Below, one piece after another: positions 1 to 48,323 of a stretch of 64,000 bases of DNA. Numbering within the stretch: the stretch's first letter is position 1; every line of letters begins with the position of its first letter. Location: the NCBI GenBank assembly GCA_964016885.1, contig OZ024759.1, forward strand, positions 25,358,001 to 25,422,000. The letters run 5' to 3'. Under the pieces are notes generated by a model that saw only the letters and a program-made list of their open reading frames with translations, searched no databases and was not told where the DNA came from. The stretch is from Eledone cirrhosa. Taxonomy: Eukaryota. The position numbers and the translations under genes were made by a program.

Positions 1-3000
1 ACTCATTCGCCTTTATTTACTTACTGTCTCTCCCTTCTTTGTCCCTTTCTCTATGTTTCCCCCTCTTTCTTACACTTGTCTTACACTACGCTTTCTCCTT
101 TTTCTCTGTCTTGCCTCCTATTCACTCAACATCTCTCTCTCTCTTTGCAGCACCTCTGTATTTCTCTCCCTCTCTCTGTCTTCACATATGACCCCTTCCT
201 ATCACCACACTATCTTCTTTGTCCCTCTCACCTCACCTCTTCTCCGTTTACTCTCCTGGAGTAAAATTGCGGGTGTGCAAAATCAGATCAATTTTAGTCA
301 AGGGGGAAGTAATTCTGTAAGCACACTGCCTCCTACCCCCATACTATCTTCTTTCTGTCTCTCTCACCAGCAAACGTAAACACTCTCACTTCCCCTCCTC
401 TCCGATCTCTCTCTCTTAGAATAGTATTGCGGGTGTGCAATATCAGACATACAGAACGACACCAAGTCCCTACTTAGGCGCTCTACCAGGTTCAAATATC
501 TCGAACAAAATGAATTAATAAAACACGACTATGAAACATCAATGTATTCGCCATAATTATATTCACAACTTTATAATAAAACATTGATAAAGAAAAATAA
601 CGAAGTAAAGATAAGATTAAAACCTGAACTTCGTGAAGTTCCGTTAAAAGTATCCATGTTGCCTTGGTAGACGACAGTATATATGTAAATATAGCTGTAA
701 ACCTGTATAAATTTATGTATGCATATATAAATTGTCTTATTTACATAAGTATTTTTCTCATATCGTGTTTAAAATATTTGATAATATATCGTCTGGCTTT
801 ATTCCAGTTAATCACTACATAGCTCTCAACTCATTCGCCTTTATTTACTTACGGTCTCTCCCTTTCTTTTTGTTTCCCCCTCTTTCTTACACTACGCTTT
901 CTCCTTTTTCTCTTTTTGTCCCCATCTGCTGCCGTTTTCTCTGTCTTGCCTCCTATTCACTCAACATCCCTCTCTCTCTCTTTGCAGCACCTCTGTATTT
1001 CTCTCCCTCTTAACCCCCCTCTCTCTGTCTTCACATATGACCCCTCCTACCACCACACTATCTTTTTTCTGTCCCTCTCACTTCACCTCTTCTCTCCCCT
1101 GGAGTCAAATTGCGGGTGTGCAAAATCAGATAAATTTTACAGTCAACGGGGAAGTAATTCTGTAAGCATACTGCCTCCTACCACGATACTATCCTCTTTC
1201 TGTCTCTCTCACCAACAAACGTAAACACTCTCACTTCCCCTCCTCTCCGCTCTCTCTTAGAATAGTATTGCGGGTGTGCAATATCAGATCTCTTTTACAG
1301 TCAAGTGGTAGTAAATCTGAAAACTTACAGAACGACACCATGTCCCTACTTGGGCGCTCTACCAGGTAAAAATATCTCGAACAAAATAAATAAATTATTA
1401 AAACATTATTGTATTCGCCATAATTACATTCATAACAAAAAGAAAGGGACAAAGGAGGGAGAGAGAGACAGTAAGTAAATAAAGGCGAATGAGTTGAGAG
1501 CTTTGTCGTGATTAACTGGAATAAAGCCAGACGACATAATATGAAATATTAAACACGATATTAGAAAAATAGACAATTTATATATATGCATACATAAATA
1601 TATACAAGTTTTGCAGCTATATTTACATATATACTGTCGTCTACCAAGGCAACATGGATACTTTTAACGGAACTTCACGAAGTTCAGGTTTTAATCTTAT
1701 CTTTACTTCGTTATAGCGAATACATTGATGTTTCATAGTCGTGTTTTATTAATTCATTTTGTTCGAGATATTTTTACCTGGTAGAGCGTCCACGTAGGGA
1801 CTTGGTGTCGTTCTGTAAGTTTACAGATTTACTACCACTTTACAGTAAAAGATCTGATATTGCACACCCGCAATACTATTCTAAGAGAGAGCGGAGAGGA
1901 GGGGAAGTGAGAGTGTTTACGTTTGTTGGTGAGAGAGACAGAAAGAAGATAGTATGGGGGTAGGAGGCAGTGTGCTTACAGAATTACTTCCCCCTTGACT
2001 GCAAAATTGATCTGATTTTGCACACCCGCAATTTTACTCCAGGAGAGTGAACGGGGAAGAGAAGAGGGGAGGTGAGAGGGACAGAAAGAAGATAGTGTGG
2101 TGGTAGGACGGGATCATATGTAAAGACAGAGAGAGAGGGGGGGGTGAGAGAAAAGCAGAGAAATATAGAGTAACTGCAAAGAAAGAGAGGGATGTTGAGT
2201 GAATAGGAGGCAAGACAGAGAGAGGGAAAGAAGGGACAGAGAGAGAACGGCGGAGGATGGGGGGGGGGGGGCAAAAAGAGAAAGAGAGGGTAGTAGAAAG
2301 TGTAGAGTAAGAGAGAGGGGGGAACAAAAAGAAGGCGAGTGACTATAGGAGGAAAACAGCGAAAGAAAAAAACAAAAAAGGCAGAGAGAGAGAGAGGGAG
2401 AAAGGCTGTGTGTGAGGGAAAGAGAGAGAGTAAGTAAATAAAGGGGAGAGTTGAGAGTTATGTCGTGATTAACTGGAATAAAACCAGACGACATAATATG
2501 AAATATTAAACACGATATTAGAGAAATACTTTTGTAAATAAGACAACAATTTAAATACATATATGCATACATAAATATAAACATATGTTTACAGCTATAT
2601 ATCATGTAACCGTCGTCTGCCAAGGCAACATGGATACTTTTAACGGAGTTTCTCGAAGTTTAGGTTTTAATCTTATCTTAACTTCTTTATTTTTCCTTAT
2701 CAATGTTTTATTATAAAGTTGTGAATATAATTATGGCAAATACATTGATGTTTCATAGTCGTGTTTTATTAATTAATTTATTTTGTTCGAGATATGTTTA
2801 CCTGGTAGAGCGCCCAAGTAGGGACTTGGTATCGTTCTGTATGTCTGATATTGCACAACCACAACACTATTGTCAGAGAGAGAGCGCGGAGAGGAGGGGA
2901 AGTGAGAGTGTTTACGTTTGTTGGTGAGAGAGACAGAAAGAAGATAGTATCGTGGTAGGAGGATGTATGTTTACAGAATTACTTCCCCCTTGACTGTAAA

Positions 3001-6000
3001 ATTGATCTGATTTTGCACACCCGCAATTTTATTAGAGAGAGACAGACAGATAGATAGAGAGGGGAGTGAATAGGAGGTAAGACAGAGAAAGAACGGCGGA
3101 GGATGGGGGGTCAAAAAGAGAAAGGATTTGAGAATGAGAGAGAAAGAGAGGGAAGTAGAAAGCCTAGAGTAAGAGAGGGGGAAACAGCGAAACAAAGAAG
3201 GAAGGGAGAAAGAGAAAGGCTGTATGAGAGAAGGGCTCGGCAAAAAGAGAAAGTAAAGGCTGTATGAGAGGGGAAAGAAAGAGAGAGAAAGAGACATTAA
3301 GTAAACAAAGGGGAGTGAGTTCAACGTGATTAAATGCAATAAAACCAGACACAATGAAATATTAAACACGATAATAGACAAATATTTTTGTAAATAAGAC
3401 AATAATTTATATATACATATTGTCATACATAAATATATACATATATCTACAACTATATTTATATATATACACACACATGTAACTGTCGTCTACCAAGGCA
3501 ACATGGACACTTTTACGGAGTTTCACGAAGTTTAGGTTTTAATCTAGTCTTAACTTCTTTATTTTTCCTTATCAATATTTTATTATAAAGTTGTGAATAT
3601 AATTATGGCAAATACATTGATGTTTCATAGTCGTGTTTTATTAATTAATTTATTTTGTTCGAGATATGTTTACCTGGTAGAGCGCCCAAGTAGGGACTTG
3701 GTATCGTTCTGTATGTCTGATATTGCACAACCACAACACTATTGTCAGAGAGAGAGCGCGGAGAGGAGGGGAAGTGAGAGTGTTTACGTTTGTTGGTGAG
3801 AGAGACAGAAAGAAGATAGTATGGGGGTAGGAGGCAGTGTGCTTACAGAATTACTTCCCCCTTGACTGCAAAATTGATCTGATTTTGCACACCCGCAATT
3901 TTACTCCAGGAGAGTGAACGGAGAAGAGAAGAGAGGAGGTGAGAGGGACAGAAAGAAGATAGTGTGGTGGTAGGAAGGGGTCATATGTGAAGACGGAGAG
4001 AGAGGGGGTGAGAGAAAGGCAGAGAAATATAGAGGAACTGCAAAGAAAGAGAGAGATGTTGAGTGAATAGGAGGTAAGACAGAGAGAGAATGCGAGGGAT
4101 GGGGGGCAAAAAGAGAAAGGATTTGAGAATAAGAGAGAGAAAGAGAGGATAGTAGAAAGTGTAGAGTAAGAGAGAGGGGGGAACAAAAAGAAGGCGAGTG
4201 ACTATAGGAGGAAAACAGCGAAAGAAAGAAACAAAAAAGGCAGAGAGAGAGAAAGGCTGTGTGTGATGGAAAGAGAGAGAGTAAGTAAATAAAGTTAAGA
4301 GTTATGTCGTGATTAACTGGAATAAAACCAGACGACATAATATGAAATATTAAACACGATATTAGAGAAATACTTTTGTAAATAAGACAACAATTTAAAT
4401 ACATATATGCATACATAAATATAAACATATGTTTACAGCTATATATCATGTAACCGTCGTCTGCCAAGGCAACATGGATACTTTTAACGGAGTTTCTCGA
4501 AGTTTAGGTTTTAATCTTATCTTAACTTCTTTATTTTTCCTTATCAATGTTTTATTATAAAGTTATGAATGTAATTATGGCGAATACATTGATGTTTCAT
4601 AGTCGTGTTTTATTAATTCATTTTCTTCGAGATATTTTTACATGGTAGAGCGCCCAAGTAGGGACTTGGTGTCGTTCGGAATGTCTGATATTGCACACCC
4701 GCAATACTATTCTAAGAGAGAGATATCGGAGAGGAGGGAAAGTGAGAGTGTTTATGTTTGTTTGTGAGAGAGACAGAAAGAAGAAAGTATCGTGGTAGGA
4801 GGATGTATGCTTACAGAATTACTTCCCCCTTGACTGTAAAATTGATCTGATTTTGCACACCCGCAATTTTATTAGAGAGAGACAGACAGATAAATAGAGA
4901 GGGGAGTGAATAGGAGGTAAGACAGAGAAAGAACGGCGGAGGATGGGGGTCAAAAAGAGAAAGGATTTGAGAATGAGAGAGAAAGAGAGGGAAGTAGAAA
5001 GCCTAGAGTAAGAGAGGGGGAAACAGCGAAACAAAGAAGGAAGGGAGAAAGAGAAAGGCTGTATGAGAGAAGGGCTCGGCAAAAAGAGAAAGTAAAGGCT
5101 GTATGAGAGGGGAAAGAAAGAGAGAGAAAGAGACATTAAGTAAACAAAGGGGAGTAAGTTCAACGTGATTAAATGCAATAAAACCAGACACAATGAAATA
5201 TTAAACACGATAATAGACAAATATTTTTGTAAATAAGACAATAATTTATATATACATATTGGCATACATAAATATATACATATATCTACAACTATATTTA
5301 TATATACACACACATGTAACTGTCGTCTACCAAGGCAACATGGACACTTTTACGGAGTTTCACGAAGTTTAAGTTTTAATCTAGTCTTAACTTCTTTATT
5401 TTTCCTTATCAATGTTTTATTATAAAGTTGTGAATATAATTATGGCAAATACATTGATGTTTCATAGTCGTGTTTTATTAATTAATTTATTTTGTTCGAG
5501 ATATGTTTACCTGGTAGAGCGCCCAAGTAGGGACTTGGTATCGTTCTGTATGTCTGATATTGCACAACCACAACACTATTGTCAGAGAGAGAGCGCGGAG
5601 AGGAGGGGAAGTGAGAGTGTTTACGTTTGTTGGTGAGAGAGACAGAAAGAAGATAGCATGGGGGTAGGAGGCAGTGTGCTTACAGAATTACTTCCCCCTT
5701 GACTGCAAAATTGATCTGATTTTGCACACCCGCAATTTTACTCCAGGAGAGTGAACGGAGAAGAGAAGAGGGGAGGTGAGAGGGACAGAAAGAAGATAGT
5801 GTGGTGGTAGGAAGGGGTCATATGTGAAGACGGAGAGAGAGGGGGTGAGAGAAAGGCAGAGAAATATAGAGGAACTGCAAAGAAAGAGAGAGATGTTGAG
5901 TGAATAGGAGGCAAGACAGAGAGAGAATGCGAGGGATGGGGGGCAAAAAGAGAAAGGATTTGAGAATAAGAGAGAGAAAGAGAGGGTAGTAGAAAGTGTA

Positions 6001-6498
6001 GAGTAAGAGAGAGGGGGGAACAAAAAGAAGACGAGTGACTATAAGAGGAAAACAGCGAAAGAAAGAAACAAAAAAGGCAGAGAGAGAGAGAGAAAGGCTG
6101 TGTGTGATGGAAAGAGAGAGAGTAAGTAAATAAAGTTAAGAGTTATGTCGTGATTAACTGGAATAAAACCAGACGACATAATATGAAATATTAAACACGA
6201 TATTAGAGAAATACTTTTGTAAATAAGACAACAATTTAAATACATATATGCATACATAAATATAAACATATGTTTACAGCTATATATCATGTAACCGTCG
6301 TCTGCCAAGGCAACATGGATACTTTTAACGGAGTTTCTCGAAGTTTAGGTTTTAATCTTATCTTAACTTCTTTATTTTTCCTTATCAATGTTTTATTATA
6401 AAGTTATGAATGTAATTATGGCGAATACATTGATGTTTCATAGTCGTGTTTTATTAATTCATTTTCTTCGAGATATTTTTACATGGTAGAGCGCCCAA
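1..6498. repeat. Satellite with ~0.83-1.0 kb monomer; forward 1-~1435, inverted ~1440-6498
   Basis: actcattcgcctttatttacttac occurs at 1 and ~829 and its reverse complement at ~1470. ttacagaattacttccccc recurs at ~1976, 2971, 3843, 4810 and 5680. Confidence 0.93.
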
Positions 6499-6714
6499 TT
6501 GATGGAAGGCAGGAGGCTGAATTAAGTGCAAGAATTGCAGGAGCTGGTGCAGTAATGCACCAGCTTCAGTATCTGTAATGAGAAGGGAGGTAAGTGTAAA
6601 ATCTAAACTCGCTACCTTCACAAATACAAGCTGCCGGGGAGGGGGTTCCTCTGAATGGTATTTGTAGTAATGTTACTCAATAGAGTGCATAGCTTGGAGA
6701 TCAGAGAGACAGCT

Positions 6715-7280
6715 GTATAAAAAATGTGCAGGGCAATGAAAATTTGATAGAAGCTACAGAGTGGGCGGACCAAGAAAAACCTGGGACGAGGTGATAAAAA
6801 CTGACCTTGCTCACTTACACCTCTCTAAGATAATGTCACAGGATTGAAATCTTTGGCGCCATGCAGTTGTACAGAAGACTCACCTTCCCTTGCATACAAA
6901 CCTAGTCAGTAGGCACCTCTTAACTCAATATACACCCCACACACCCTACTACCCCATCCTCCCATTACCGTTCCGTCCACTGTGTTGATGACACAACAGT
7001 CCACACTGTAAAGGGGTCGTGTAGGAGACACAGTAACGAGGCTCCCAGTCCACACTGTAAATGTGGTTGGTGCTAGGAAGGGCATCAAGCTGTAGAAAAC
7101 CTGCCAGATAGTCCTATATGAGCAAGACACGGTCACTCTACCTACCTTGCCTCAAGTGGGACAACTCCCGTCTAACAACCTGCCAGAGACACGGTCTCCT
7201 GACCATTTCCGCATCAAATGGAACAAAATCGTCTAACCCATGCTAGCATGGAAGATGGACGTTAAACGATGATGATGATA
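6715..7280 (+). mobile_element. RTE 3' end / RTE-related short element with (GAT)n tail
   Basis: GRPRKTWDEVIKTDL...DLWRHAV, then ...aacccatgctagcatggaagatggacgttaaacgatgatgat. Reverse copies lie at ~8312-8810, 8903-9120, 30785-30960 and 36375-36600. Confidence 0.72.
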
Positions 7281-7589
7281 TATATATATATATATATTCT
7301 TTATTATGACTAAGTGATGAGTCTTATTGCTCTGGAGTTTCATCTCCGCACACACAGTATCCTCAGATAAGGCACTCACCCACATACCAACCAACCTACT
7401 TATCTATCTACCAACCAAATGTCTACACACAAGTGTCTAGCTGCTCACTTATTCATCTCCTCATCTACTCACCCACATTGCCATAGTTTAACAAGTGAAA
7501 TCATTTAAAGAGTATAAGCATACCTGCAAATGTTTCCTTAAATCCCTATTTCATTAGAAGATAACTGAATAAAATTGCTGCATCAATCT

Positions 7590-7980
7590 GCTTTACAATA
7601 GGCACACCATATACCTGTGTGTATCTGGTTGACAATAGATACACTATATCCTAGTGTATCTGGTTTACAATACATACACTGTATCCGTGTGTATATCTGG
7701 TTTACAATAGGCACACCATATCCGTGTGTATATCTGATTTACGATAGGTACACGGTATCCCTGTGTATATCTGGTTTACAATACATACACTGTATCCCTG
7801 TGTATATCTGGTTTACAATAGGTACACTGTAACCCTGTGTGTATCTGGTTTACAATAGGTACACTGTATCCCTATATGTATCTGGTTTAAAACAGGTACA
7901 CCATATCACTGTATATATCTTTATGTAGCTGCTTTAGAATAGGTAAACTGTATCTCTTTGTATATCTACAATGGATACAC
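7590..7980 (+). repeat. Minisatellite, 35-37 bp unit (tgtatatctggtttacaataggtacactgtatccctg), ~10-11 copies
   Basis: ggtttacaa recurs at 7662, 7699 and onward. Confidence 0.88.
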
Positions 7981-9217
7981 TTTTACTGGCCCAGAGGCCA
8001 GTAAAACAGTTGTTACCAGAAAGGACATCTGGCTATAAAAATTAAAAAAATTGCTCCATTTATTATGGTAAGAAACTCTCAGGAGAGCTTGACAGCAAAA
8101 CATCTTCAGAAAAGAAACTCCTCTCAAGTGAGTGTTTCAACCCATAACATTTTACACTCAAAGGAGGCTGGACTCCTCCAAGTTATGACTCCTCAGTGCC
8201 CTTCTGCTGACATTTAGGTATTTGGATATCTGAAATTTGTATAATAATATTATTGAAGTCATCAGAAGAACCGATATATCTTTAATTAAGCCAGCATCAT
8301 TAAGATAATGAATCATCATCATCGCTTAATGTCCATCTTCCATGCTAGCATGGGTTAGACGGGAATTGTCCCACTTGAGGTAAGATTGATCGGGTGATCG
8401 TGTCTCGCTCGTATAGGACTATCTGGCAGGTTTTCTATGGCTGGATGCCCTTCCTAACACCGACCTCGTTTACAGTGTGAACTGGGAGGTTTTTAACGTG
8501 TTACCTACATGGCCACATTACAGCATGGACTGTGTGTTTTTTTGTCGTGACACCTACATGACCGCATTAGTTTGGACTGCATGTTGTGGTACCAACATAA
8601 CTTTACAGAGAAAGGGTGGTGTTGGTGGGAGTGGGAGGATAGAGTAAGGGTAGTGAGTTGGGGTATATATTTGGTTAAGAGGTACCTATTGGCTGTAGGT
8701 TTCGCTTTGTACATAGCTAAGGTGGGTCTTCTGTACTATTGTGTGGCGCCAAAGATCTCGGTCCAGTGACATTGTCTTAGAGAGGTGCAAGTGTGTAAGG
8801 TCGGAATTTATCAAATATACAAATTTATATATACATATATCATATACACAAATTTTTATATATATATATATCATATATACAAATTTATATATATATATAT
8901 TATCATCATCATGATCATTTAACGTCCATTTTCCATGCTAGCATGTATTAGACGGGTTGTCCCATTTGAGGCAAGTTGGGTCAGGTGACCATGTCTTACT
9001 CATACAGAACTGTTTCTGGTTTGGTTTCTACAGCTGGATGTCCTTCCTGACACCAACCACATTTACAGTGTTTGTTGGGTGCTTTTTTTTCATGACACCT
9101 ACATGACCACTTTACAGTGTATAAGATATATACATATATATATATCATTTTTTATTCTTTCTCTTGCTCTGGTCATATATTTTGGTGCATTGTATTTGAG
9201 GTTCCTAACAATAGCTA

Positions 9218-10470
9218 ATCTTCTTCTTCACCCAGTTATTGCTGAGAGGGTCGTGGGGGCAGAGTCTTCAAATACTCCCTTCAGCAGGTCCTGTCAGAAG
9301 CAATCATCTCCAACTGATCTGGCTGGATCCCCAAGTGTGACTAGTTAAGCTCATGAAAGTTATCCAACCATCTTGCTTGGGGTCTGCCCCAGCTCTACCT
9401 GGAGTGACTCTCTGAGTGATGCACTTTAACATGTAATGTTACCCCAAAGTTCCTTAGGATGAACCCCATTTCAGCAGCTTGTATTTACGATTATATTCTT
9501 TTGGTCATTACCCAAGATTCATGACTATAGGTAAGGGTTGGCACGAAAACTGAATTGAAGATAGCGAGTTTAGCTTTTACACCTACCTCCCTTCTTCTGA
9601 TTACTGAATGCTGAAGCTGGCATATTTCTGCACCAGCTCCTGCAATTCTTGCACTTAATTCAGCCTCCTACATTCCATCACTCATGAACACGGCCCCAAG
9701 ATACTTGAACGTCTCTACCTGCTTCCGTGGAACTCCATTCTCATGTAGAGTGTACTGCGCAAGCTTCCTTGAGAGGATGAGTGTCTCAGTTTTTGCAGCA
9801 ATGATTTTCATTCCACATGTAGCACTCGGCATAAACCTATCAAATGCAAGTCAAAGATCATCTGTGCAAAGAAGGAGGCTTACAAAGCTTAGCTTGGAAA
9901 TAAGTCCTGCTTGCATTTGTGGTACAACCAGGCTCGAAAAATCGCAGCAGAGACAGTAAAAGCTTCCAAAGATATGGGAAGACTTTGGGCTTAAGTTGGA
10001 ATCCGATTTCAGATCAGCAAATGAACCATCTGTCATAAGAAGCCCTCCTCCACACCTACTATCAAGAACGTGTCTGGGGTTCTCCTCTCTTCAGAGAGGT
10101 GCATCCTTGTGAGGTGGAGAGAATAATTTGCTGATCTACTAACCCGATCACAAAATCCTTGGCACTACACATTCTTTTACTTTCACTTCTGACAGCCAAT
10201 TCCGTTGTAGTGCCTAATCCTTAAATAAAGATGGTATTCTTTGGTTGACTTCTGTGTGCCTGGCGGCCTGAATCTCTGAAAGGGCACCTAAGCAATGGCA
10301 ATCGGGAGTGATAATCCCAATTTTCAAAAAGGGAGACAAAGAGCGATTGTTCCAATTACAGAGGGGTCTCCTTGTTAAGCCTCCCCGGTAAAGTTTCTTC
10401 TAAGTGTCTGGCAAAGGGATGTAGGGAGATTGTCGAGTCCAAGCTAGCTGATGAACAGTGTAGCTTTCGC
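9218..10470 (-). mobile_element. Degenerate RTE-clade LINE with an inverted 5' part
   Basis: Minus 9930-9218 gives LLCTDDL, QVETFKYLG, PTLTYSHESW and a (GAA)n tail. Plus ~9930-10470 gives QWQSGVIIPIFKKGDK, SNYRGVSLLSLPGKV and EQCSFR. Confidence 0.82.
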
Positions 10471-10664
10471 AATCGTTAATCGTATTGGTTATATATTCTC
10501 ATTCTAAAAGAATGGTGAGCTATTTGTAATGTTATTTATGTAAATCTTTAAGACTTAATAAATAAAATTTTGAAAACAGACGTAAGGAAATACATAGAGA
10601 AATACACAAACGGTGAACACTATAATTAAGTGTTCAGGCTATCTGATATCAAATAATAACATAC

Positions 10665-10794
10665 CTGCCAGTTTTACGTGATTTGGTAACCACGGTTCGA
10701 AGCTTCTAGACCATTCTTGTAGAACACGATCGCAAAGATATTCAATAATCCAACCGTTTATTGTGTTTTCAATTAAATGAAAATTGTCAGCCAT
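10665..10794 (-). CDS. Candidate first coding exon of a divergent gene, TRFH-like (telomere repeat-binding factor-like) N-terminus
   Basis: Minus strand: gccacaATGG (strong Kozak), 43 open codons MADNFHLIENTINGWIIEYLCDRVLQEWSRSFEPWLPNHVKLA, then G|gtatgt (phase 1 donor), in unique CpG-containing sequence. GWIIEYLC resembles TRF1 GWMLDFLC (from memory). No intact downstream exons were found in the window. Confidence 0.5.
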
Positions 10795-11104
10795 TGTGGC
10801 GGGGAAAGTATTTGAAATCTCGTAACACCGGTGTCAAACGAAATAATTCCCCTTCTTAAAATACCTCCTAAAATGATTTGCTTCCGCTAAATGTATCTAT
10901 GCTCCCGTAACTTTTAAGGAATTCGTAGGAGCACCGTATTAACAAACGTCATTTCTAGGGTATTTTTAAACCTGGCGGAGTTCATCTCTTCTCCAGATCT
11001 GAATACAGCAGATTTCATCCAGAGAAGGATAGAAAGTGAGAAAGACATATAGAGGAAGAATCGAACCCTAGTACTAGACTGGTACTTTTTTTTTATCGAC
11101 CTCG

Positions 11105-11758
11105 GGCATAGGTTAAGTTTAACGTCCTCGAAAATGAAACTAGGTTTTCTGACAAGTGAATGTGTTTGTTTGTTTTTTTACAATGAAATTTACGATACAC
11201 TCTTTGTTTATTTACAACAGGTCTCTATAGTGATATGGTGTTAATTAGTATTGCGTGTGTGATTATTTTCTCTTATATATATATGTGTGGGTGTGTATAT
11301 GTGTGTATATATATGTGTGTATGTATGTATATATATATATATGTGTGTTTGTATATATATATGTGTTTGTGTCATCATCATCGTTTAGATGTTTTTGTAA
11401 TATCTTGCCAAAGTTGACACCAACTATAAACAAATTAAGGCCGGGTCATAAGAAGGACAGAGAATGATAAGGGATTTGGGTAAAAACATGTAAACGATGA
11501 TGATGACACAAACACATATATATATACAAACACACATATATATATACATACAGACACACATATATATACACACCCACACATATATATATAAGAGAAAATA
11601 ATCACACACGCAATACTAATTAACACCATATCACTATAGAGACCTGTTGTAAATAAACAAAGAGTGTATCGTAAATTTCATTGTAAAAAAAAAAAAAACA
11701 CATTCACTTGTCAGAAAACCTAGTTTCATTTTCGAGGACGTTAAACTTAACCTATGCC
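11105..11758. mobile_element. Non-autonomous long-TIR (Mutator/foldback-like) DNA element with 9-bp TSD, inserted in a SINE
   Basis: TIRs of ~290 bp (GGCATAGGTTAAGTTTAACG...CGTTAAACTTAACCTATGCC) are flanked by TCGACCTCG at 11096-11104 and 11759-11767. Confidence 0.88.
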
Positions 11759-12429
11759 TCGACCTCGAAAGAATGAAAAGCAAAGTTAACCTCGGCGGAA
11801 TTTAAAATCAGAGAGTAACGAATACCACAAAAGATTCCATCCGACGTTTCAATTCGTCCTTCCTTCCGCCAAATACCTAGTTTAAACGTCTTTCACATGA
11901 CGTATCAAGATATAGATTTAGTTAGTAAGAGAATAATCGAATCTGAAGTTCCTTGTGTGTATTTTTGCATCCCTACTTAGAGCGGTTATGGTTTAGTTTC
12001 AGACGGAATTTCTTTATAAAAGACTGAGTCATAAGTAACAGGGCAGTACTTCTACTCCTCCTACTTCTTCTTCTTTTTCGACATAAGCACAAAAGTCCTT
12101 GGCTTACCCAGGAGATCAGTGCCTCCTCTTCAGCACTGACTTGGTATATATGGACCTATCCAACCCTTGCTAAAAGACAAAACCACAAGACTACCTCCTG
12201 GACAGAACACCTGTCCAACACAGGGTTAAACCCACAGCTATTGCTGGTACTCATTTCCAACTGAGTATACCGGAGCAACATGAAATGAAGGGTTTTACTC
12301 AAGAACACAACACACAACCCAGTCCAAGAATTAAACCCATGACATTAAGATTGTAAGCTAAACACACTTATCACTAGGCCACCTGCCTCCACAAGGTGGA
12401 ATTCCCTGCCTGGAAACTTGGTGCAAGCA

Positions 12430-12517
<88 letters not shown>

Positions 12518-13219
12518 TATTGTTTAAGGATGGACTGAGAACCCAGCTCAAAAGTGATGGGATTCCTATAAGAATAATTATATCACAAATTAGAAACATC
12601 TGGACACAATTTTAAAGAATATATTATCGGGAAGTAGAATAAACCAAAAGATCAACTGCTAGAATCTTACATTGTCAACACCTCTCCATTAGATTAACAA
12701 CAACAAAAAAAACTGAGAAAGAACTGCCATTTTTAGAGATATTCATAAAACAACTGGCAGAGTAGACCCTGAGCAAGATGGTTTGATAGCATCCATGAGC
12801 TCGACTGGTCTCGCTTGGGGATCCTTCCAGGTCAATTGGAGCCAGATGCTTCTGGCAAAACAGAAGATGTATACATAATACTGTCTCACTTCTTTTTTTA
12901 TAATATATATATATAATAGTTTCTACTTTAGGCACAAAGCCAGCAATTACCCAGTGCATACTGGTACTTTATTTTATCGATCCCGTAAGGATGAAAGGCA
13001 AAGTCAACCTCGGCAGGATTTGAACTCAGATCGTAAAGGGATATATATAATGAATAAAAATAACCAGGATTAAATTACATTAAATTATTTCAATGATTTA
13101 CAAATATTTCTATCAATACAGTAAGAAATTCCACTTTTTCCTCTGTACTGATTTACTCAGAATCTATTAAACAGCATGAATAACATAATTTATAATATAT
13201 ATACATATATATATATACA

Positions 13220-13310
<91 letters not shown>

Positions 13311-13401
13311 CGTTATTCCGGGTTGAATCGGAGGTAACCACAGTAAGTAAGGTACTCAATACATTGCAGAGTATAAAAGTTTTTATATATATATATATAT
13401 A

Positions 13402-13560
13402 AGTAAGACCTCAAGCAGGAGGAGAGTGACTTGGTGGTGGAACAATAAGGTAGATGAAGCAGTCAAGGCCAAGAGACAGGCATGGAAAGAATGGAAGAAC
13501 GGGGGAGCAGGGTACATTACATAGAGACCAAGAGGGAAGCTAGGCGACAAGTATACTTAG
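13402..13560 (+). mobile_element. Internal RTE LINE fragment abutting the 15-mer array
   Basis: RRVTWWWNNKVDEAVKAKRQAWKEWKNG/GSRVHYIETKREARRQVYL with one frameshift, the typical RTE linker between EN and RT. Confidence 0.75.
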
Positions 13561-16500
13561 GAGGTAGAACCTTAGGAGGTAAAACCTTAGGAGGTAAAAC
13601 CTTAGGGGGAACCCTAGGAGGTAAAACCTTAGGGGGTAAAACCTTAGGAGGTAAAACCTTAGGGGGTAAAACCTTGGGAGGTAAAACCTTGGGAGGTAAA
13701 ACCTTAGGAGGTAAAACCTTAGGAGGTAAAACCTTAGGAGGTAAACCTTAGGAGGTAAAACCTTAGGATGTAAAACCTTAGGAGGTTAACCTTAGGGGGT
13801 AGAACCTTAGGGGGTAGAACCTTAGGAAGTAGAACCTTAGGGGGTAGAACCTTAGGAGGGGGGAACCTTAGGAGGGGGGAACCTTAGGAGGTAGAACCTT
13901 AGGAGGTAAAACCTTAGGAGGGGGGAACCTTAGGAGGTAAAACCTTACGAGGTAAAACCTTACGAGGTAAAACCTTACGAGGTAAAACCTTACGAGGTAA
14001 AACCTTAGGGGGTAGAACCTTAGGGGGGAACCTTACGAGGTAAAACCTTTGGGGGGAACCTTAGGAGGTAAAACCTTAGGAGGTAGAACCTTAGGGGGGA
14101 ACCTTAGGAGGTAAAACCTTAGGGGTTAGAACCTTAGGAGGTAAAACCTTAGGGGGTAGAACCTTAGGAGGTAAAACCTTAGGAGGTAGAACCTTAGGAG
14201 GTAGAACCTTAGGAGGTAGAGCCTTAGGGGGTAGAACCTTAGGGGGGAACCTTACGAGGTAAAACCTTTGGGGGGAACCTTAGGAGGTAAAACCTTAGGG
14301 GTTAGAACCTTAGGAGGTAAACCTTAGGGGGTAAAACCTTAGGAGGTAAAACCTTAGGAGGTAGAACCTTAGGAGGTAAAACCTTAGGGGGTAGAAGCTT
14401 AGGAGGTAGAACCTTAGGAGGTAGAACCTTAGGAGGTAAAACCTTAGGAGGTAGAACCTTAGGAGGTAGAACCTTAGGGGGGAACCTTACGAGGTAAAAC
14501 CTTTGGGGGGAACCTTAGGAGGTAGAACCTTAGGAGGTAAAACCTTGGGAGGTAGAACCTTAGGAGGTAGAACCTTAGGAGGTAGAACCTTAGGAGGTAG
14601 AACCTTAGGAGGTAGAGCCTTAGGAGGGAACCTTAGGAGGTAGAACCTTAGGAGGTAGAGCCTTAGGAGGTAGAACCTTAGGAGGTAGAACCTTAGGAGG
14701 TAAAACCTTACGAGGTAGAACCTTAGGGGGTAGAACCTTAGGAGGGGGGAACCTTAGGAGGTAAAACCTTACGAGGTAAAACCTTACGACGTAAAACCTT
14801 AGGGGGTAGAACCTTAGGAGGTAGAACCTTAGGAGGTAGAACCTTAGGAGGTAGAACCTTAGGAGGTAAAACCTTAGGAGGTAGAACCTTATGAGGTAGA
14901 ACCTTAGGAGGTAAAACCTTAGGAGGTAGAACCTTAGGAGGTAGAACCTTAGGAGGGAACCTTAGGAGGTAGAACCTTAGGAGGTAGAACCTTAGGAGGT
15001 AAAACCTTAGGAGGTAAAACCTTAGGAGGTAGAACCTTAGGAGGTAAAACCTTAGGAGGTAGAACCTTAGGAGGTAGAACCTTAGGAGGGAACCTTAGGA
15101 GGTAGAACCTTAGGAGGTAGAACCTTAGGAGGTAGAACCTTAGGAGGGAACCTTAGGAGGTAGAACCTTAGGAGGTAGAACCTTAGGAGGTAGAACCTTA
15201 GGAGGGAACCTTAGGAGGTAGAACCTTAGGAGGTAGAACCTTAGGAGGTAGAACCTTAGGAGGGAACCTTAGGAGGTAGAACCTTAGGAGGTAGAGCCTT
15301 AGGAGGTAGAACCTTAGGAGGTAGAACCTTAGGAGGTAGAACCTTAGGAGGGAACCTTAGGAGGTAAAACCTTAGGAGGGAACCTTAGGAGGTAGAACCT
15401 TAGGAGGTAAAACCTTAGGAGGTAGAACCTTAGGAGGTAAAACCTTAGGGGGTAGAACCTTAGGAGGTAGAACCTTAGGAGGGAACCTTAGGAGGTAAAA
15501 CCTTAGGAGGTAGTGCCTTAGGATGTAGAACCTTAGGAGGTAAAGCCTTAGGGGGTAGAACCTTAGGGGGTAGAACCTTAGGAGGTAGAACCTTAGGAGG
15601 TAAAACCTTAGGGGATAGAACCTTAGGAGGTAAAACCTTAGGAGGTAAAACCTTAGGAGGTAGAACCTTAGGAGGTAGAACCTTAGGAGGGAACCTTAGG
15701 AGGTAGAACCTTAGGAGGTAGAACCTTAGGAGGTAAAACCTTAGGATGTAGAACCTTAGGAGGTAAAACCTTAGGAGGGAACACCTTAGGAGGTAAAACC
15801 TTAGGAGGTAGAACCTTAGGAGGTAGAACCTTAGGAGGGAACTTTAGGAGGTAGAACCTTAGGAGGTAGAACCTTAGGAGGTAGAGCCTTAGGAGGTAGA
15901 ACCTTAGGAGGTAGAACCTTAGGAGGTAGAACCTTAGGAGGTAGAGCCTTAGGAGGTAGAACCTTAGGAGGTAGAACCTTAGGAGGTAGAACCTTTTACC
16001 TCCTAAGGTTCTACATCCTAAGGCACTACCTCCTAAGGTTTTACCTCCTAAGGTTTTACCTCCTAAGGTTTTACCTCCTAAGGTTCCCTCCTAAGGTTTT
16101 ACCTCCTAAGGTTTTACCTCCTAAGGTTCTACCCCCTAAGGTTTTACCTCCTAAGGTTCTACCTCCTAAGGTTCTACCCCCTAAGGTTCTACCCCCTAAG
16201 GTTTTACCTCCTAAGGTTCTACATCCGAAGGCACTACCTCCTAAGGTTTTACCTCCTAAGGTTTTACCTCCTAAGGTTCCCTCCTAAGGTTTTACCTCCT
16301 AAGGTTCCCTCCTAAGGTTCTACCTCCTAAGGTTCTACCTCCTAAGGCTCTACCTCCTAAGGTTCTACCTCCTAAGGTTCTACCTCCTAAGGTTCCCTCC
16401 TAAGGTTCTACCTCCTAAGGTTCTACCTCCTAAGGTTCTACCTCCTAAGGTTCCCTCCTAAGGTTCTACCTCCTAAGGTTCCCTCCTAAGGTTCTACCTC

Positions 16501-19500
16501 CTAAGGTTCTACCTCCTAAGGTTCCCTCCTAAGGTTTTACCTCCTAAGGTTCTACATCCTAAGGTTTTACCTCCTAAGGTTCTACCTCCTAAGGTTTTAC
16601 CTCCTAAGGTTTTACCTCCTAAGGTTTTACCTCCTAAGGTTTTACCTTCTAAGGTTCTACCTCCTAAGGTTTTACCTCCTAAGGTTCTACATCCTAAGGT
16701 TCTACCTCCTAAGGTTTTACCTCCTAAGGTTTTACCTCCTAAGGTTCCCTCCTAAGGTTTTACCTCCTAAGGTTCTACCTCCTAAGGTTCTACCTCCTAA
16801 GGCTCTACCTCCTAAGGTTCTACCTCCTAAGGTTCTACCTCCTAAGGTTCTACCTCCTAAGGTTCCCTCCTAAGGTTCTACCTCCTAAGGTTCTACCTCC
16901 TAAGGTTCTACCTCCTAAGGTTCTACCTCCTAAGGTTCCCTCCTAAGGTTCTACCTCCTAAGGTTCTACCTCCTAAGGTTCTACCTTAGGAGGTAGAACC
17001 TTAGGAGGTAGAACCTTAGGAGGTAGAACCCTAGGAGGTAGAACCTTAGGAGGGAACCTTAGGAGGTAGAACCTTAGGAGGTAGAACCTTAGGAGGTAGA
17101 ACCTTAGGAGGTAGAGCCTTAGGAGGTAGAACCTTAGGAGGTAGAACCTTAGGAGGGAACCTTAGGAGGTAAAACCTTAGGAGGGAACCTTAGGAGGTAA
17201 AACCTTAGGAGGTAAAACCTTAGGAGGTAGTGCCTTAGGAGGTAAAACCTTAGGATGTAGAACCTTAGGAGGTAAAACCTTAGGAGGTAGAACCTTAGGA
17301 GGTAAAACCTTAGGAGGTAAAACCTTAGGAGGTAAAACCTTAGGAGGTAAAACCTTAGGAGGTAGAACCTTAGGAGGTAAAACCTTAGGAGGTAAAACCT
17401 TAGGAGGTAAAACCTTAGGAGGTAGAACCCTAGGAGGTAAAACCTTAGGAGGTAAAACCTTAGGAGGTAGAACCTTAGGAGGTAAAACCTTAGGAGGTAG
17501 AACCTTAGGAGGTAAAACCTTAGGAGGTAAAACCTTAGGAGGTAAAACCTTAGGAGGTAAAACCTTAGGAGGGAACACCTTAGGAGGTAAAACCTTAGGA
17601 GGTAAAACCTTAGGATGTAGAACCTTAGGAGGTAAAACCTTAGGAGGGAACACCTTAGGAGGTAAAACCTTAGGAGGTAGAACCTTAGGAGGTAGAACCT
17701 TAGGAGGGAACCTTAGGAGGTAGAACCTTAGGAGGTAGAACCTTAGGAGGTAGAACCTTAGGAGGTAGAGCCTTAGGAGGTAGAACCTTAGGAGGTAGAA
17801 CCTTAGGAGGTAGAACCTTAGGAGGGAACCTTAGGAGGTAAAACCTTAGGAGGGAACCTTAGGAGGTAGAACCTTAGGAGGTAGAGCCTTAGGATGTAGA
17901 ACCTTAGGAGGTAAAACCTTAGGAGGTAAAACCTTAGGAGGTAGTGCCTTAGGATGTAGAACCTTAGGAGGTAAAACCTTAGGGGGTAGAACCTTAGGGG
18001 GTAGAACCTTAGGAGGTAGAACCTTAGGAGGTAAAACCTTAGGGGGTAGAACCTTAGGAGGTAAAACCTTAGGAGGTAAAACCTTAGGAGGTAGAACCTT
18101 AGAAGGTAAAACCTTAGGAGGTAGAACCTTAGGAGGTAGAACCTTAGGAGGTAAAACCTTAGGAGGTAGAACCTTAGGAGGTAAAACCTTAGGAGGTAGA
18201 ACCTTAGGAGGTAGAACCTTAGGAGGTAGAACCTTAGGAGGTAAAACCTTAGGAGGTAGAACCTTAGGAGGTAGAACGTTAGGAGGTAGAACCTTAGTGG
18301 GAACCTTAGGAGGTAAAACCTTAGGGGGAACCTTAGGAGGTAAAACCTTAGGGGGAACCTTAGGAGGTAAAACCTTAGGGGGTAGAACCTTAGGAGGTAG
18401 AACCTTAGGGGGTAGAACCTTAGGGGGTAAAACCTTAGGAGGTAGAACCTTAGGAGGTAGAACCTTAGGAGGTAGAACCTTAGGAGGTAGAACCTTAGGA
18501 GGTAGAACCTTAGGAGGGAACCTTAGGAGGTAGAACCTTAGGAGGTAGAACCTTAGGAGGTAGAACCTTAGGAGGTAGAACCTTAGGAGGTAGAACCTTA
18601 GGAGGGAACCTTAGGAGGTAAAACCTTAGGAGGGAACCTTAGGAGGTAAAACCTTAGGAGGTAAAACCTTAGGAGGTAGTGCCTTAGGAGGTAAAACCTT
18701 AGGATGTAGAACCTTAGGAGGTAAAACCTTAGGAGGTAAAACCTTAGGAGGTAAAACCTTAGGAGGTAAAACCTTAGGAGGTAGAACCTTAGGAGGTAAA
18801 ACCTTAGGATGTAGAACCTTAGGAGGTAAAACCTTAGGAGGGAACACCTTAGGAGGTAGTGCCTTAGGATGTAGAACCTTAGGAGGTAAAACCTTAGGAG
18901 GTAGAACCTTAGGAGGTAGAACCTTAGGAGGTAGAACCTTAGGAGGTAGAACCTTAGGAGGGAACCTTAGCAGGTAAAACCTTAGGAGGGAACCTTAGGA
19001 GGTAAAACCTTAGGAGGTAGAACCTTAGTGGGAACCTTAGGAGGTAAAACCTTAGGGGGAACCTTAGGAGGTAAAACCTTAGGGGGAACCTTAGGAGGTA
19101 AAACCTTAGGGGGTAGAACCTTAGGAGGTAGAACCTTAGGGGGTAGAACCTTAGGGGGTAGAAGCTTAGGAGGTAAAACCTTAGGAGGCAAAACCTTAGG
19201 AGGCAAAACCTTAGGAGGTTAGGAGGTAAAACCTTAGGAGGTAAAACCTTAGGAGGTAAAACCTTACGAGGTAAAACCTTATGAGGTAAAACCTTACGAG
19301 GTAAAACCTTACGAGGTAAAACCTTAGGGGGTAGAACCTTAGGGGGGAACCTTACGAGGTAAAACCTTAGGAGGTAGAACCTTAGGGGGGAACCTTAGGA
19401 GGTAAAACCTTAGGAGGTAGAACCTTAGGGGGTAGAACCTTAGGAGGTAGAACCTTAGGGGGTAGAACCTTAGGAGGTAAAACCTTAGGAGATAAAACCT

Positions 19501-19936
19501 TAGGAGGTAGAACCTTAGGAGGTAAAACCTTAGGAGGGAACACCTTAGGAGGTAAAACCTTAGGAGGTAGAACCTTAGGGGGTAGAACCTTAGGAGGTAG
19601 AACCTTAGGAGGGAACACCTTAGGAGGTAAAACCTTAGGAGGTAGAACCTTAGGGGGTAGAACCTTAGGAGGTAGAACCTTAGGGGGTAGAACCTTAGGG
19701 GGTAAAACCTTAGGAGGTAAAACCTTAGGAGGTAAAACCTTAGAAGGTAAAACCTTAGGGGGTAAAACCTTAGGAGGTAAAACCGTACGGTGTAGAACCT
19801 TAGGAGGTAAAACCTTAGGAGGTAAAACCTTAGCGGGTAGAACCTTAGAGGGGAACCTTACGAGGTAAAACCTTAGGGGGAACCTTTGGGGGGAAAAACC
19901 TTAGGGGGGAACCTTACGGGGGAACCTTAGGAGGTA
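13556..19936 (+). repeat. Tandem array of 15-bp unit CCTTAGGAGGTARAA (with shorter variants), roughly 430 copies
   Basis: Directly visible. Variants include TTAGGGGG, TTACGAGG and TTAGGATG. The block ~15995-16986 is in reverse orientation. Confidence 0.97.
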
Positions 19937-21412
19937 TGGAGGGATGGAGAGAGAGAGAGAGAGAGAGAGAGGGATGGATGGAGAGAGAGAGAGAGAGGGA
20001 TGGATGGAGAGAGAGAGAGGGGGATGGATGGAGAGAGAGAGAGAGAGTGATGGATGGAGAGGGATGGATGGAGAGGGATGGATAGAGAGAGAGGTATGGA
20101 TGGAGAGAGATGGGGGTGGGTGGAGAGAGAGAGATGGATAGAGAGAGAGAGGGGGGTGGATGGAGAGAGAGAGAGGGGTAGATAGAGAGAGAAAGAGGGG
20201 TGGATAGAGAGAGAGAGAGAGGAATGGAATGGAGAGAGAGAGGGATGGAATGGAGAGAGAGAGGGATGGATGGAATGGAGAGAGAGAGGGATGGAATGGA
20301 GAGAGAGAGGGATGGATGGAGAGAGGGGTGGACGGAGAGAGAGAGAGAGATGGATTGGGAGAGAGGGATGGATGGAGAGAGAGAGAGACATGGAAAGAAA
20401 GATAGAGAGGGATGGATGGATAGAAGGATAGAGAGGGATGGATAGAGAGAGAGAGAGAGAGAGAGGGATGGATAGAGGGAGAGGGGGAGGGATGGAGAGG
20501 GGGATGGATGGGGAGAGAGGGATGGAAGGAGAGAGAGAGAGAGAGGGATGGATGGAGAGGGATGGAAGGATAGAGAGGGATGGATGGAGAGAGAGAGAGA
20601 GAGATGGATGGAGAGAGGGATGGATGGAGAGAGAGAGAGAGAGTGATGGATGGAGAGAGAGATGGATGGAGAGAGGGAGGGATGGAGAGAGAGAGAGGGA
20701 TGGAATGGAGAGAGGGAGGGATGGAGAGAGAGAGAGAGGGATGGAATGGAGAGAGAGAGAGGGAGGGATGGAGAGAGAGAGAGGGATGGATAGAGAGAGA
20801 GAGAGGGAGAGATGGATGGAGAGAGAGAGAGAGGGATGGATGGAGAGAGGGACGGATAGAGAGAGGGATGGATAGAGAGAGAGAGGGGGATGGAAGGAGA
20901 TAGAGGGGGATGGAAGAAGAGAGAGAGAGAGAGGGATGGATAGAGAGAGAGGGATGGAGAGAGAGGGATGGAAGGAGAGAGGGAGAGGGATGGAAGGAGA
21001 GAGAGAGAGGGATGGCTAGAGAGAGAGAGAGGGATGGATAGAGAGGGAGAGAGGGGTGGATAGAGAGGGAGAGAGGGATGGGTGGAGAGAGAGAGGGATG
21101 GATGTGGAGAGAGGGAGGGATGCATAGGGAGAGGGACGGATGGAGAGAGGGATGGATAGAGAGAGAGAGAGAGGGGTGGATGGAGAGAGAGAGAGAGAGA
21201 GGGGTGGATGGATAGAGAGAGAGAGATGGATGGAGAGAGAGGGATGGATAGAGAGAGAGGGATGGATGGATAGAGAGAGGGATGGATAGAGAGAGAGAGA
21301 TGGAAGGATAGAGAGAGAGGGATGGAAAGAGAGAGAGAGGGATGGATGGAGAGAGAGCGATGGATAGAGAGTTAGAGGGGGATGGATGGAGAGAGAGAGC
21401 GGGATGGATAGA
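19937..21412 (+). repeat. Purine-rich low-complexity tract of mixed (GA)n/(GGAT)n
   Basis: Almost entirely G/A with interspersed T, and nearly no C, over 1.5 kb. Confidence 0.95.
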
Positions 21413-21836: not shown

Positions 21837-21929
21837 TTGAAAGTAGGTTTGCTGGATCTTATTTTAGTGTGTTCTTTTTTTAAAATATAACAATTATTAG
21901 GAGGTCCTTGTCCTTCGTTTGTGCTAATC

Positions 21930-39943
<18,014 letters not shown>

Positions 39944-46222: not shown

Positions 46223-47066
46223 ATAACAATAATAATTGTTTAAGCTTTTGACACACAACCAGCAATTACCCTGGTGCTTTATTTTATCGACCCACTAAGG
46301 ATGAAAGGCAAGATTAACCTCGGCGAGATTTGAACTCAGATCATAAACAGCCATAACTCTACGCTGCAAAGCTTGGCATCTGACGTTAATAATAATGGAT
46401 TCTTATATAGGCACAAGGCCAGCAAATTTTTTTTGGGGGGGTCGATTAAATCGACCCCAGTGCGTGACTGGTTCTTTATTTTATCGACCCTGTAAGGATC
46501 AAAGGCAAAGATAACCTCGGCGGGATTTGAACTTTGAACGTAAAGGGCCATAACTCTATGCTGCAAAGCATGGCATCTGACACTAATAATAATAATAAAC
46601 GTTTCAAAATACTTGAAGATGTCATCTGAGTGGCTACTTTCCTTCTTATCTTTTACAGATTCATTGGACATGTTCTCACGATAGCCTCTGTTTAATGCTT
46701 TTGATAATAGATTTGTTTGATGACGTTGGTGTGGAGGGGGACTGACATGGGGTTAAACAACAATAACAATAACAAAAACAACACAAAGTAGGTCTGTTCT
46801 TTTACCTTTATCATCTGTTACACGTAATAAGACTTCGTGTTTTTTGACATCTCTGTGTTTGTCTTGTCTTGTCTTGACTATTCTTGAACTATATATATAT
46901 ATATATATATACAGTATATAAATATATGTATGTATGTATATATATATATATTTATATATATATATATATATACCTGTATATACAGAGGTTATATTTAATT
47001 TGTTGGGATTCAACAAGCTTTTTTTGTTTTCCGGGTATGTCAATATTTATTTATAAAACAAATCTG

Positions 47067-47132
47067 TATTTTATCTGATGAAAGCGCACCATAATTTGCC
47101 TTGGTTGCCCTTGAAATATATATAATAAAATA
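47067..47132 (+). ncRNA. Minimal type I hammerhead ribozyme motif
   Basis: Stem I TATTTTAT/ATAAAATA (8 bp), core CTGATGA, stem II AAGCGCACC/GGTTGCCCTT (imperfect), GAAA, palindromic stem III TATATA, cleavage triplet AUA. Confidence 0.75.
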
Positions 47133-47308
47133 AATATGGTTTTATAAATATAGTTTCCATTTATTAATATATTGTATATACCTGTATATATCTATATCTA
47201 TATATGCATATATGTGTGTGTATATATATATATGTAAATATATATATATGAATATAAATATATATATGTATATATATGTATATATATATATATACATATA
47301 TATATGTA

Positions 47309-47412
<104 letters not shown>

Positions 47413-47860: not shown

Positions 47861-47962
47861 ACATGGCAGCGATAATGAGGGACAGAGACCGCTGGAGAGA
47901 ACTGGTCCATGGATCTCGGGAATTTTACCCTCCCTAGATAGATATGTATATAAGTATTTATA

Positions 47963-48025
<63 letters not shown>

Positions 48026-48243: not shown

Positions 48244-48323
<80 letters not shown>

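What the first reader, a model, noticed from the sequence alone, without database searches (positions are those of the whole stretch)
10665..19936. TRFH-like first exon lying ~2.8 kb from a 6.4-kb TTAGG-containing array
Seen: a Kozak ATG, 43 open codons and a canonical phase-1 donor on the minus strand. ENTINGWIIEYLCDRVLQEW recalls helix 1 of the TRFH domain (TRF1 EAVAAGWMLDFLCLSLCRAF, TRF2 EEAVNRWVLKFY; from memory, vertebrate TERF exon 1 also ends in phase 1). TTTCCCCGCC (E2F-like) and TTCAAA (CHR-like) sit just 5' of the ATG. Inference: a possible telomere repeat-binding factor gene, head-to-head with HSPA9, has a large telomere-like array in its upstream region, raising the possibility of autoregulation or position effect. 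The homology rests on ~20 residues only.
Basis: partly seen in the sequence, partly recalled or inferred. Interest (0 to 1): 0.72.

Follow-up and report, generated by a model that had tools for sequence, protein, structure and literature searches.

The report
Octopus telomere-protein gene beside ordinary minisatellite
This is likely the first coding exon of an octopus telomere repeat-binding factor (TRF) gene, facing away from the mitochondrial chaperone gene HSPA9; the 6.4-kb repeat between the two genes has no canonical TRF binding site and is likely an unrelated minisatellite rather than a self-regulation switch.

Summary
The gene call holds; the autoregulation idea is weak. The 43-codon exon (10794-10665, minus) is real and single-copy, and matches the N-terminus of unnamed octopod proteins (28 of 43 identical to O. 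vulgaris CAI9738837.1). These orthologues end in a telobox Myb domain that keeps all five TRF1 base-contacting residues. The predicted fold of their first 205 residues best matches human TRF1/TRF2 TRFH (Z 12.8; best unrelated 7.3). HSPA9 starts at 21930 (plus), head-to-head; accession numbers suggest the same pairing in four other octopods. The array is a 15-bp minisatellite of about 432 units with a 1-kb internal inversion. It holds 0 YTAGGGTTR sites, 0 tandem telomere repeats and 3 exact TAGGGTT. It lies nearer HSPA9 (2.0 kb) than TRF (2.8 kb), behind transposon debris, in a window that is 21% tandem repeat even without it. Splicing, expression and binding are untested. Single invertebrate TRFs, molluscan ones included, are published: a new, unannotated member of a known family.

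The parts
10665..10794 (-). First coding exon of the octopod TRF gene: 43 codons plus 1 nt, encoding TRFH helix 1 and most of helix 2; phase-1 donor GT at 10664-10663
   Evidence: helices 6-30 and 37-48 in the orthologue model; single-copy in read contigs
1..10664 (-). Inferred intron 1 (over 10.6 kb); no further TRF exon in the window; filled with repeats
   Evidence: Profile A2 against 2923 six-frame segments: only the exon scores (E 3e-18; next 4.5)
10795..10921 (-). Single-copy 5' flank (5' UTR or promoter) holding the E2F-like (10807-10798) and CHR-like (10816-10811) words; function not shown
11105..11758 (.). MITE-like insertion with inverted arms of about 290 bp and a 9-bp target duplication TCGACCTCG (11096-11104, 11759-11767), inside a dispersed repeat
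   Evidence: loose ends at 11104 continue as the empty-site repeat
13556..19936 (.). 15-bp minisatellite, consensus CCTTAGGAGGTARAA, 432 units (365 of 15 nt, 45 of 13, 9 of 12, 13 other); non-coding
15996..16984 (-). Inverted block of about 67 units inside the array
19938..21412 (.). GA/GGAT-rich simple repeat abutting the array
21930..39943 (+). HSPA9 (mitochondrial Hsp70) coding region; ATG at 21930, head-to-head with TRF, 11,136 nt ATG to ATG
   Evidence: tblastn of O. vulgaris, O. bimaculoides and Argonauta proteins

Best explanation
The exon is likely the first coding exon of the octopod telomere repeat-binding factor gene, whose product is predicted to dimerise through an N-terminal TRFH domain and to bind double-stranded TTAGGG telomere repeats through a C-terminal telobox Myb domain, while the neighbouring 15-bp array is likely a locally expanded minisatellite that this protein would not bind. 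Shown: the exon, its homology to octopod proteins, the telobox residues of those proteins, the head-to-head layout with HSPA9, and the absence of canonical sites in the array. Predicted: the TRFH fold, from a model of the O. vulgaris orthologue. Inferred: splicing to exons left of the window, an intact Myb domain in this species, dimerisation, telomere binding, and growth of the array by slippage, unequal exchange and one inversion in an intergenic stretch that also collected transposons. Any effect of the array on the two promoters would be generic (spacing, heterochromatin), not feedback.
For: Exon homology: 28/43 identical to O. vulgaris CAI9738837.1, 29/43 to O. bimaculoides, 19/43 to Argonauta, 17/43 to cuttlefish; similarity ends at the donor. 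Telobox: K-D-K-W-R in 6 of 8 aligned proteins; the other 2 lack the C-terminal domain. The O. vulgaris protein aligns to human TRF1 with R380, V418, K421, D422 and R425 kept (alignment; residue roles from PMC5737604 passages). The best PDB sequence hit is human TRF1 (E 2.2e-6, two stretches). With the profile the top hits are TRF2 (1.3e-11) and TRF1 (4e-9), and 11 of the 40 hits are TRFH-only chains (E 4.5e-5 to 3.9e-3). Fold: the top 39 rows are TRF1/TRF2 TRFH (Z 10.4-12.8, rmsd 4.4-5.3, 181-196 aligned, model 1-205), then S. pombe Tbf1 at 9.4 and the best unrelated at 7.3; Foldseek lists only TRFH chains down to rank 46. Neighbouring accessions for TRF and HSPA9 in O. vulgaris (CAI9738837/36), O. 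sinensis (XP_029655299/296), O. bimaculoides (XP_014775847/850) and Argonauta (GAB1607677/675). Array: 0 YTAGGGTTR, 3 TAGGGTT, 0 tandem repeats; one G3x4 motif in 6.4 kb; frame-breaking unit lengths; the rest of the window is 21% tandem repeat. TRF1 dimers need two YTAGGGTTR motifs (PMC3241663 passage).
Against: The Myb domain and exons 2 onward of this species were not seen; they lie outside the window. The 43 residues alone hit no Pfam family and no TRF in the PDB. Pfam's TRF family was not among the 13 families listed for the 8 orthologues at E<=1. In the profile search the exon-1 helix aligns to TRF2 95-114 only at a sub-threshold score (-0.3 bits). The model is modest (mean pLDDT 57.6, 8 sequences), no Foldseek row reached E<=0.001 (best 3.8e-3), and Z near 13 is borderline for helical bundles by the tool's own note. 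Against the array being neutral: 390 copies of TAAGGTT/AACCTTA, one mismatch from TAGGGTT; 395 sites within two mismatches of YTAGGGTTR; a random 15-mer has the one-mismatch core 3-4% of the time and both telomere-like words 0.3-0.8%; core positions are 99-100% conserved among units, although most other positions are too.
Confidence: 0.85

Rival explanations
1. Autoregulation by avidity: the gene is TRF, and TRF dimers bind the roughly 390 degenerate half-sites (CTAAGGTT, every 15 bp) weakly but in bulk, nucleating shelterin or repressive chromatin 2-3 kb from the TRF and HSPA9 promoters.
For: One-mismatch core in most units, chance 3-4% per random unit; 3 exact TAGGGTT; TRF1 dimers accept any spacing or orientation of half-sites (PMC3241663 passage); human TRF2 has extra-telomeric promoter sites (PMC6879327 passages).
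Against: The mismatch removes one of the three consecutive G:C pairs that the recognition helix and D422 face (PMC5737604 passages), and the final purine of YTAGGGTTR is lost too; no complete site. The two telomere-like words overlap in the near-palindrome CCTTAGG/CCTAAGG, so they are one coincidence, found after the fact in a large scan. One G4 motif only. No basic domain in the orthologues, whereas human TRF2 uses it for satellites. About 2.6 kb of repeats lie between array and TRF promoter.
Confidence: 0.05
2. The exon is a relic, or the 5' end of a broken or Myb-less copy, while the functional TRF lies elsewhere or is rearranged.
For: No second exon within 10.6 kb; only 65-67% identity to Octopus orthologues where HSPA9 exons are 84-100% over their true spans; current O. 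bimaculoides RefSeq models end before the Myb domain.
Against: Open frame, Kozak context and donor are intact; single-copy; same neighbour as in other octopods; TRFH domains diverge fast (36% +/- 10%, PMC8653790 section 5); an older O. bimaculoides model has the Myb domain.
Confidence: 0.05
3. The array is a decayed interstitial telomere or fusion relic that was later amplified with a spacer, so it is telomere-derived but no longer bound.
For: The unit contains AACCTTAG (373 copies), one change from the C-strand word AACCCTAG (3 copies), overlapping TTAGG; an internal inversion.
Against: No tandem hexamers in the window; 0 AACCCTAA in the array; the inversion junctions fall within ordinary units; the resemblance is only a few-percent event.
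Confidence: 0.05

Closest known systems
Single invertebrate TRF (TRF2-like ancestor of TRF1/TRF2), Myler et al. 2021, PMC8653790
   Same: TRFH paired with a C-terminal Myb carrying K-D-R/K-W/Y-R; no acidic patch before the Myb, as reported for molluscs (3-5 D/E against 12-16 K/R in 60 residues, 5 of 5 proteins).
   Different: 'Octopus' does not occur in the main text or in 2 of 3 supplementary files. Cephalopod proteins are short (O. vulgaris 412 aa) and too divergent for the Pfam TRF model. Databases call them uncharacterized or 'myb F'.
Human TRF1 (TERF1) and TRF2 (TERF2)
   Same: Top sequence and fold matches; five base-contacting Myb residues kept.
   Different: No acidic or basic N-terminal domain: the TRFH match starts at residue 1-5; 12-18% identity in the structural alignments.
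Interstitial telomeric sequences bound by TRF1/TRF2
   Same: Internal, G-skewed tandem array containing TTAGG, near genes.
   Different: 15-bp unit, no tandem TTAGGG, no YTAGGGTTR.

Membership tests
TRF1/TRF2-type telomere repeat-binding factor | N-terminal TRFH domain | tested here: met
   In orthologues: profile hits to 11 TRFH-only PDB chains; model residues 1-205 match TRF1 60-268 at Z 12.8, rmsd 4.7, 194 aligned. The window supplies residues 1-43. Pfam TRF model not hit.
TRF1/TRF2-type telomere repeat-binding factor | C-terminal Myb with K-D-R/K-W/Y-R and the N-terminal arm arginine | tested here: met
   In orthologues only: 6 of 8 aligned proteins; R380, V418, K421, D422, R425 equivalents kept in O. 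vulgaris.
TRF1/TRF2-type telomere repeat-binding factor | Both domains on one transcript in this species | not testable with these tools
   Downstream exons lie left of the window; no whole genome held.
TRF1/TRF2-type telomere repeat-binding factor | TRFH-mediated homodimer | not testable with these tools
TRF1/TRF2-type telomere repeat-binding factor | Binds duplex TTAGGG and localises to telomeres | not testable with these tools
   Needs EMSA or ChIP; that octopod telomeres are TTAGGG is assumed from most metazoans (PMC8653790 passage).
TERB1 | N-terminal ARM repeats | tested here: not met
   The N-terminal domain matches TRFH over its whole length; cephalopod TERB1 candidates appear to lack a Myb (PMC7227075 passage).
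TIN2 | TRFH domain without a C-terminal Myb | tested here: not met
   Orthologues carry a telobox; the TIN2 complex chain scores Z 6.7 against 12.8 for TRF1.
Interstitial telomeric sequence (array) | Tandem TTAGGG (or TTAGG) units | tested here: not met
   TTAGGGTTAGGG 0 and TTAGGTTAGG 0 in the whole window.
Interstitial telomeric sequence (array) | Canonical TRF half-site YTAGGGTTR | tested here: not met
   0 exact, 4 within one mismatch, 395 within two.

The most novel reading that the evidence does not exclude
An octopod TRF gene has acquired, between its own promoter and that of HSPA9, a 430-unit array of degenerate TRF half-sites (CTAAGGTT every 15 bp) that TRF dimers occupy by avidity. 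Free TRF, and hence telomere length, would then feed back on TRF and mitochondrial Hsp70 transcription.
Probability: 0.05. Interest if true: 0.75.

Novelty: new member of a known kind. Interest (0 to 1): 0.25.

Why it matters
It puts a name on the cephalopod TRF, which databases list as uncharacterized or 'myb F' and which the Pfam TRF model misses, and points to a likely conserved TRF-HSPA9 pair in octopods. That helps work on telomere biology and senescence in octopus but is expected from published shelterin evolution. It would matter much more if the array proved to be bound by the gene's own product, which would be a cis feedback loop tying telomere state to TRF and mitochondrial chaperone levels; present evidence makes that unlikely.

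Tried and rejected
With the 43 residues alone: Pfam 0 families; word-index search no candidate; one irrelevant PDB hit at E 0.84; ESM Atlas no usable hit. No RNA holder listed; 3 runs of unrecorded kind from one sample were laid as contigs and showed no joint at the donor, which says nothing on splicing. No whole genome was held. A three-unit array pattern found 0 matches in metagenome contigs, a poor test for an animal repeat. Rfam found 0 matches in 1-26000. Earlier scan findings: none by place, sequence or words. I considered 10891-10960 (plus) as HSPA9 exon 1 because it reads like a transit peptide; rejected, it has an in-frame stop and the true exon is at 21930. A coding reading of the array (LGGRT repeats) was rejected: 45 units of 13 nt break the frame, longest stop-free run 254 codons. 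Homology between the two upstream regions was rejected: 14.5% of 2000 shuffles reached the same local score. Literature: no paper in the held library with TRF1 + Myb domain + TTAAGG + telomeric, so no measurement for the G-to-A variant was found. The listed results of searches on Octopus telomere repeats, Octopus satellites (20 of 348 listed) and cephalopod shelterin (20 of 48 listed) showed no description of this gene or array.
Full report
1. Observation. On the minus strand an ATG at 10794 in GCCACAATGG opens 43 codons, followed by one G (10665) and GTATGT, a phase-1 donor. Contigs spanning the exon are identical to it and of low depth (2-9) in 3 of 3 runs laid, all one sample. The flanks below 10574 and above about 10950 are high-copy repeats. 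The array spans 13556-19936 with period 15 and 433.7 copies; my split gives 432 units, mostly CCTTAGGAGGTAGAA (138) and CCTTAGGAGGTAAAA (115), with an inverted block at about 15996-16984. The organism is an octopod: the plus-strand gene is HSPA9, and one late exon is 96% identical to O. vulgaris, 94% to O. bimaculoides and 89% to Argonauta. The HSPA9 ATG is at 21930, so the genes are head-to-head 11,136 nt apart; the array is 2762 nt from the TRF ATG and 1994 nt from the HSPA9 ATG.

2. What the exon is. Short-query tools found nothing. phmmer against 1.84 billion representatives gave 2 hits at E<=0.001, an O. sinensis protein (9.6e-13) and an Argonauta protein (3.7e-6), both at their N-termini. 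The cluster includes O. vulgaris CAI9738837.1, 412 aa, annotated 'myb F'. A search with it returned 7 proteins among 3929 candidates: 5 named octopod records and 2 unnamed Logan proteins, one of which clusters with a cuttlefish protein. The exon is 28/43, 29/43, 19/43 and 17/43 identical to the O. vulgaris, O. bimaculoides, Argonauta and cuttlefish proteins, and similarity stops at the donor. A profile of 8 sequences finds only this exon among 2923 six-frame segments of the window, so intron 1 is inferred to exceed 10.6 kb.

3. Domains of the orthologues. Six of 8 end in a Myb domain with NLKDKWR. Aligned to human TRF1, the O. vulgaris domain keeps the equivalents of R380, V418, K421, D422 and R425, the five base-interface residues examined in PMC5737604 (passages). 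Human TRF1 is the best PDB sequence hit (E 2.2e-6, one stretch in TRFH and one in the Myb). With the profile, TRF2 and TRF1 lead, and 11 of the 40 hits are TRFH-only chains, matching the second half of the domain. An AlphaFold2 model of the O. vulgaris protein (8 sequences, mean pLDDT 57.6; ten-residue blocks of 62-84 over residues 11-140) gave only TRF1/TRF2 TRFH chains down to Foldseek rank 46 (probability 1.0, target TM 0.51-0.65, best E 3.8e-3, none under 1e-3). Realignment of 995 chains put TRFH in the top 39 rows (Z 10.4-12.8, model 1-205), S. pombe Tbf1 next (9.4), unrelated folds at 7.3 or less and the TIN2 complex at 6.7. The Z is borderline for a helical domain by the tool's note, but it covers the whole domain and agrees with the sequence evidence. 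Pfam's TRF model was not among the hits, which likely explains the missing annotation. TRFH plus a C-terminal Myb with K-D-R/K-W/Y-R is the definition used in PMC8653790 (section 5 read whole, other passages seen), which reports a single TRF in each of 16 invertebrates, molluscs included. As it says of molluscs, there is no acidic patch before the Myb in 5 of 5 proteins checked.

4. Synteny. TRF and HSPA9 have neighbouring accessions in O. vulgaris (CAI9738837/36), O. sinensis (XP_029655299/296), O. bimaculoides (XP_014775847/850) and Argonauta (GAB1607677/675), and share the longest-contig length in three of these four. This is indirect evidence; orientation, distance and the presence of the array in those species were not seen.

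5. The array. It contains TTAGG 395 times but never in tandem. Counts on both strands: YTAGGGTTR 0 exact, 4 within one mismatch, 395 within two; TAGGGTT 3 exact, against 6 in the other 57.6 kb. TRF1 dimers require two YTAGGGTTR motifs, at free spacing and orientation (PMC3241663, passage). A random 15-mer has TTAGG 3% of the time, a one-mismatch TAGGGTT 3-4%, either 6-7% and both 0.3-0.8% (20,000 draws under each of three models). The two words overlap in the near-palindrome CCTTAGG, so this is one mildly unusual coincidence noticed after the fact. The mismatch removes one of the three G:C pairs the recognition helix faces; I found no direct measurement for this variant. Other routes look closed. 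There is one G3x4 motif with loops up to 15, the class enriched in extra-telomeric TRF2 peaks (PMC6879327, passages). Human TRF2 reaches satellites II/III through its basic domain, not the Myb (PMC8063955, passages), and the octopod proteins start directly with TRFH. The array is non-coding, sits behind about 2.6 kb of dispersed repeats including a MITE-like insertion, and lies in a window that is 21% tandem repeat without it.

6. Promoter words. TTTCCCCGCC occurs once in the window and TTTGAA 70 times. The pair lies 4-22 nt from the ATG, probably in the 5' UTR, with a 3-nt gap; the E2F consensus and the 4-nt CDE/CHR spacing are recalled. The O. bimaculoides model translates this stretch as GGAVT-M, which if colinear is incompatible with the same DNA word. 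I give the cell-cycle reading no weight.

7. Mechanism. Most likely (0.85): an ordinary single-copy invertebrate TRF that dimerises by TRFH, with the exon-1 helix at the interface (recalled from the human structures), and binds telomeric TTAGGG as the duplex-binding core of shelterin, beside a minisatellite that it does not bind. Shown: exon, homology, telobox residues, layout, lack of canonical sites. Predicted: fold. Inferred: splicing, intact Myb in this species, dimer, telomere binding, neutrality of the array. Rivals: avidity-based autoregulation (0.05), relic or Myb-less copy (0.05), telomere-derived but unbound array (0.05).

8. Novelty. New member of a known kind. I saw no description of the cephalopod gene or this array in the listings. 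'Octopus' is absent from the main text of PMC8653790 and from 2 of its 3 supplementary files; file 1, which could hold the species alignments, could not be searched, so an octopus sequence may already be listed there. PMC5646656 (passages) only cites one cephalopod telomere FISH study. PMC7227075 (passages) was used to set TERB1 aside. Interest 0.25.

Noticed in passing
window 10863-10871 (-) and 21897-21905 (+): Outside the array the 9-mer TTAGGAGGT occurs only twice in the window, about 70 nt before the TRF ATG and about 30 nt before the HSPA9 ATG, both in sense orientation. The chance of any unit 9-mer in a shuffled 150-nt flank is about 4% for each, noticed after the fact. Both also read as a possible TTAG|G splice acceptor of a 5'-UTR intron. 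Unexplained.
   Followed up: partly
window 11105-11758: MITE-like element with inverted arms of about 290 bp and a perfect 9-bp target duplication (a Mutator-like signature, recalled), inserted in a high-copy dispersed repeat.
   Followed up: partly
window 15996-16984: About 1 kb of the array is inverted with no spacer at either junction; it shares exact runs of 133 and 168 nt with the forward blocks. It could extrude hairpins, or be an assembly error.
   Followed up: partly
window 1-6500: Cluster of 0.4-1-kb repeat units in the inferred TRF intron 1, with a 2.8-kb overlapping match at 96% (1853-4657 against 3716-6498, offset about 1.9 kb) and an inverted set at about 1-1400; no Rfam match.
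   Followed up: partly
proteins P0128-P0130, P0133, P0123, P0126, P0127: Current O. bimaculoides RefSeq isoforms of the TRF gene end before the Myb domain while the older model has it; O. sinensis has the gene as separate N- and C-terminal fragments. Likely annotation or assembly faults.
   Followed up: no
protein P0124 (Argonauta): The hinge carries about eight copies of a 10-residue repeat; some O. bimaculoides isoforms have an acidic insert within TRFH.
   Followed up: no
window 21930-39943: HSPA9 coding exons all lie in the window and match the octopod proteins from start to stop; its introns hold several 31-132-bp minisatellites.
   Followed up: partly
window 47000-63000: Very AT-rich stretch dominated by long (AT)n runs and many short inverted repeats, for example near 54250-54480 and 55560-55970.
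   Followed up: no
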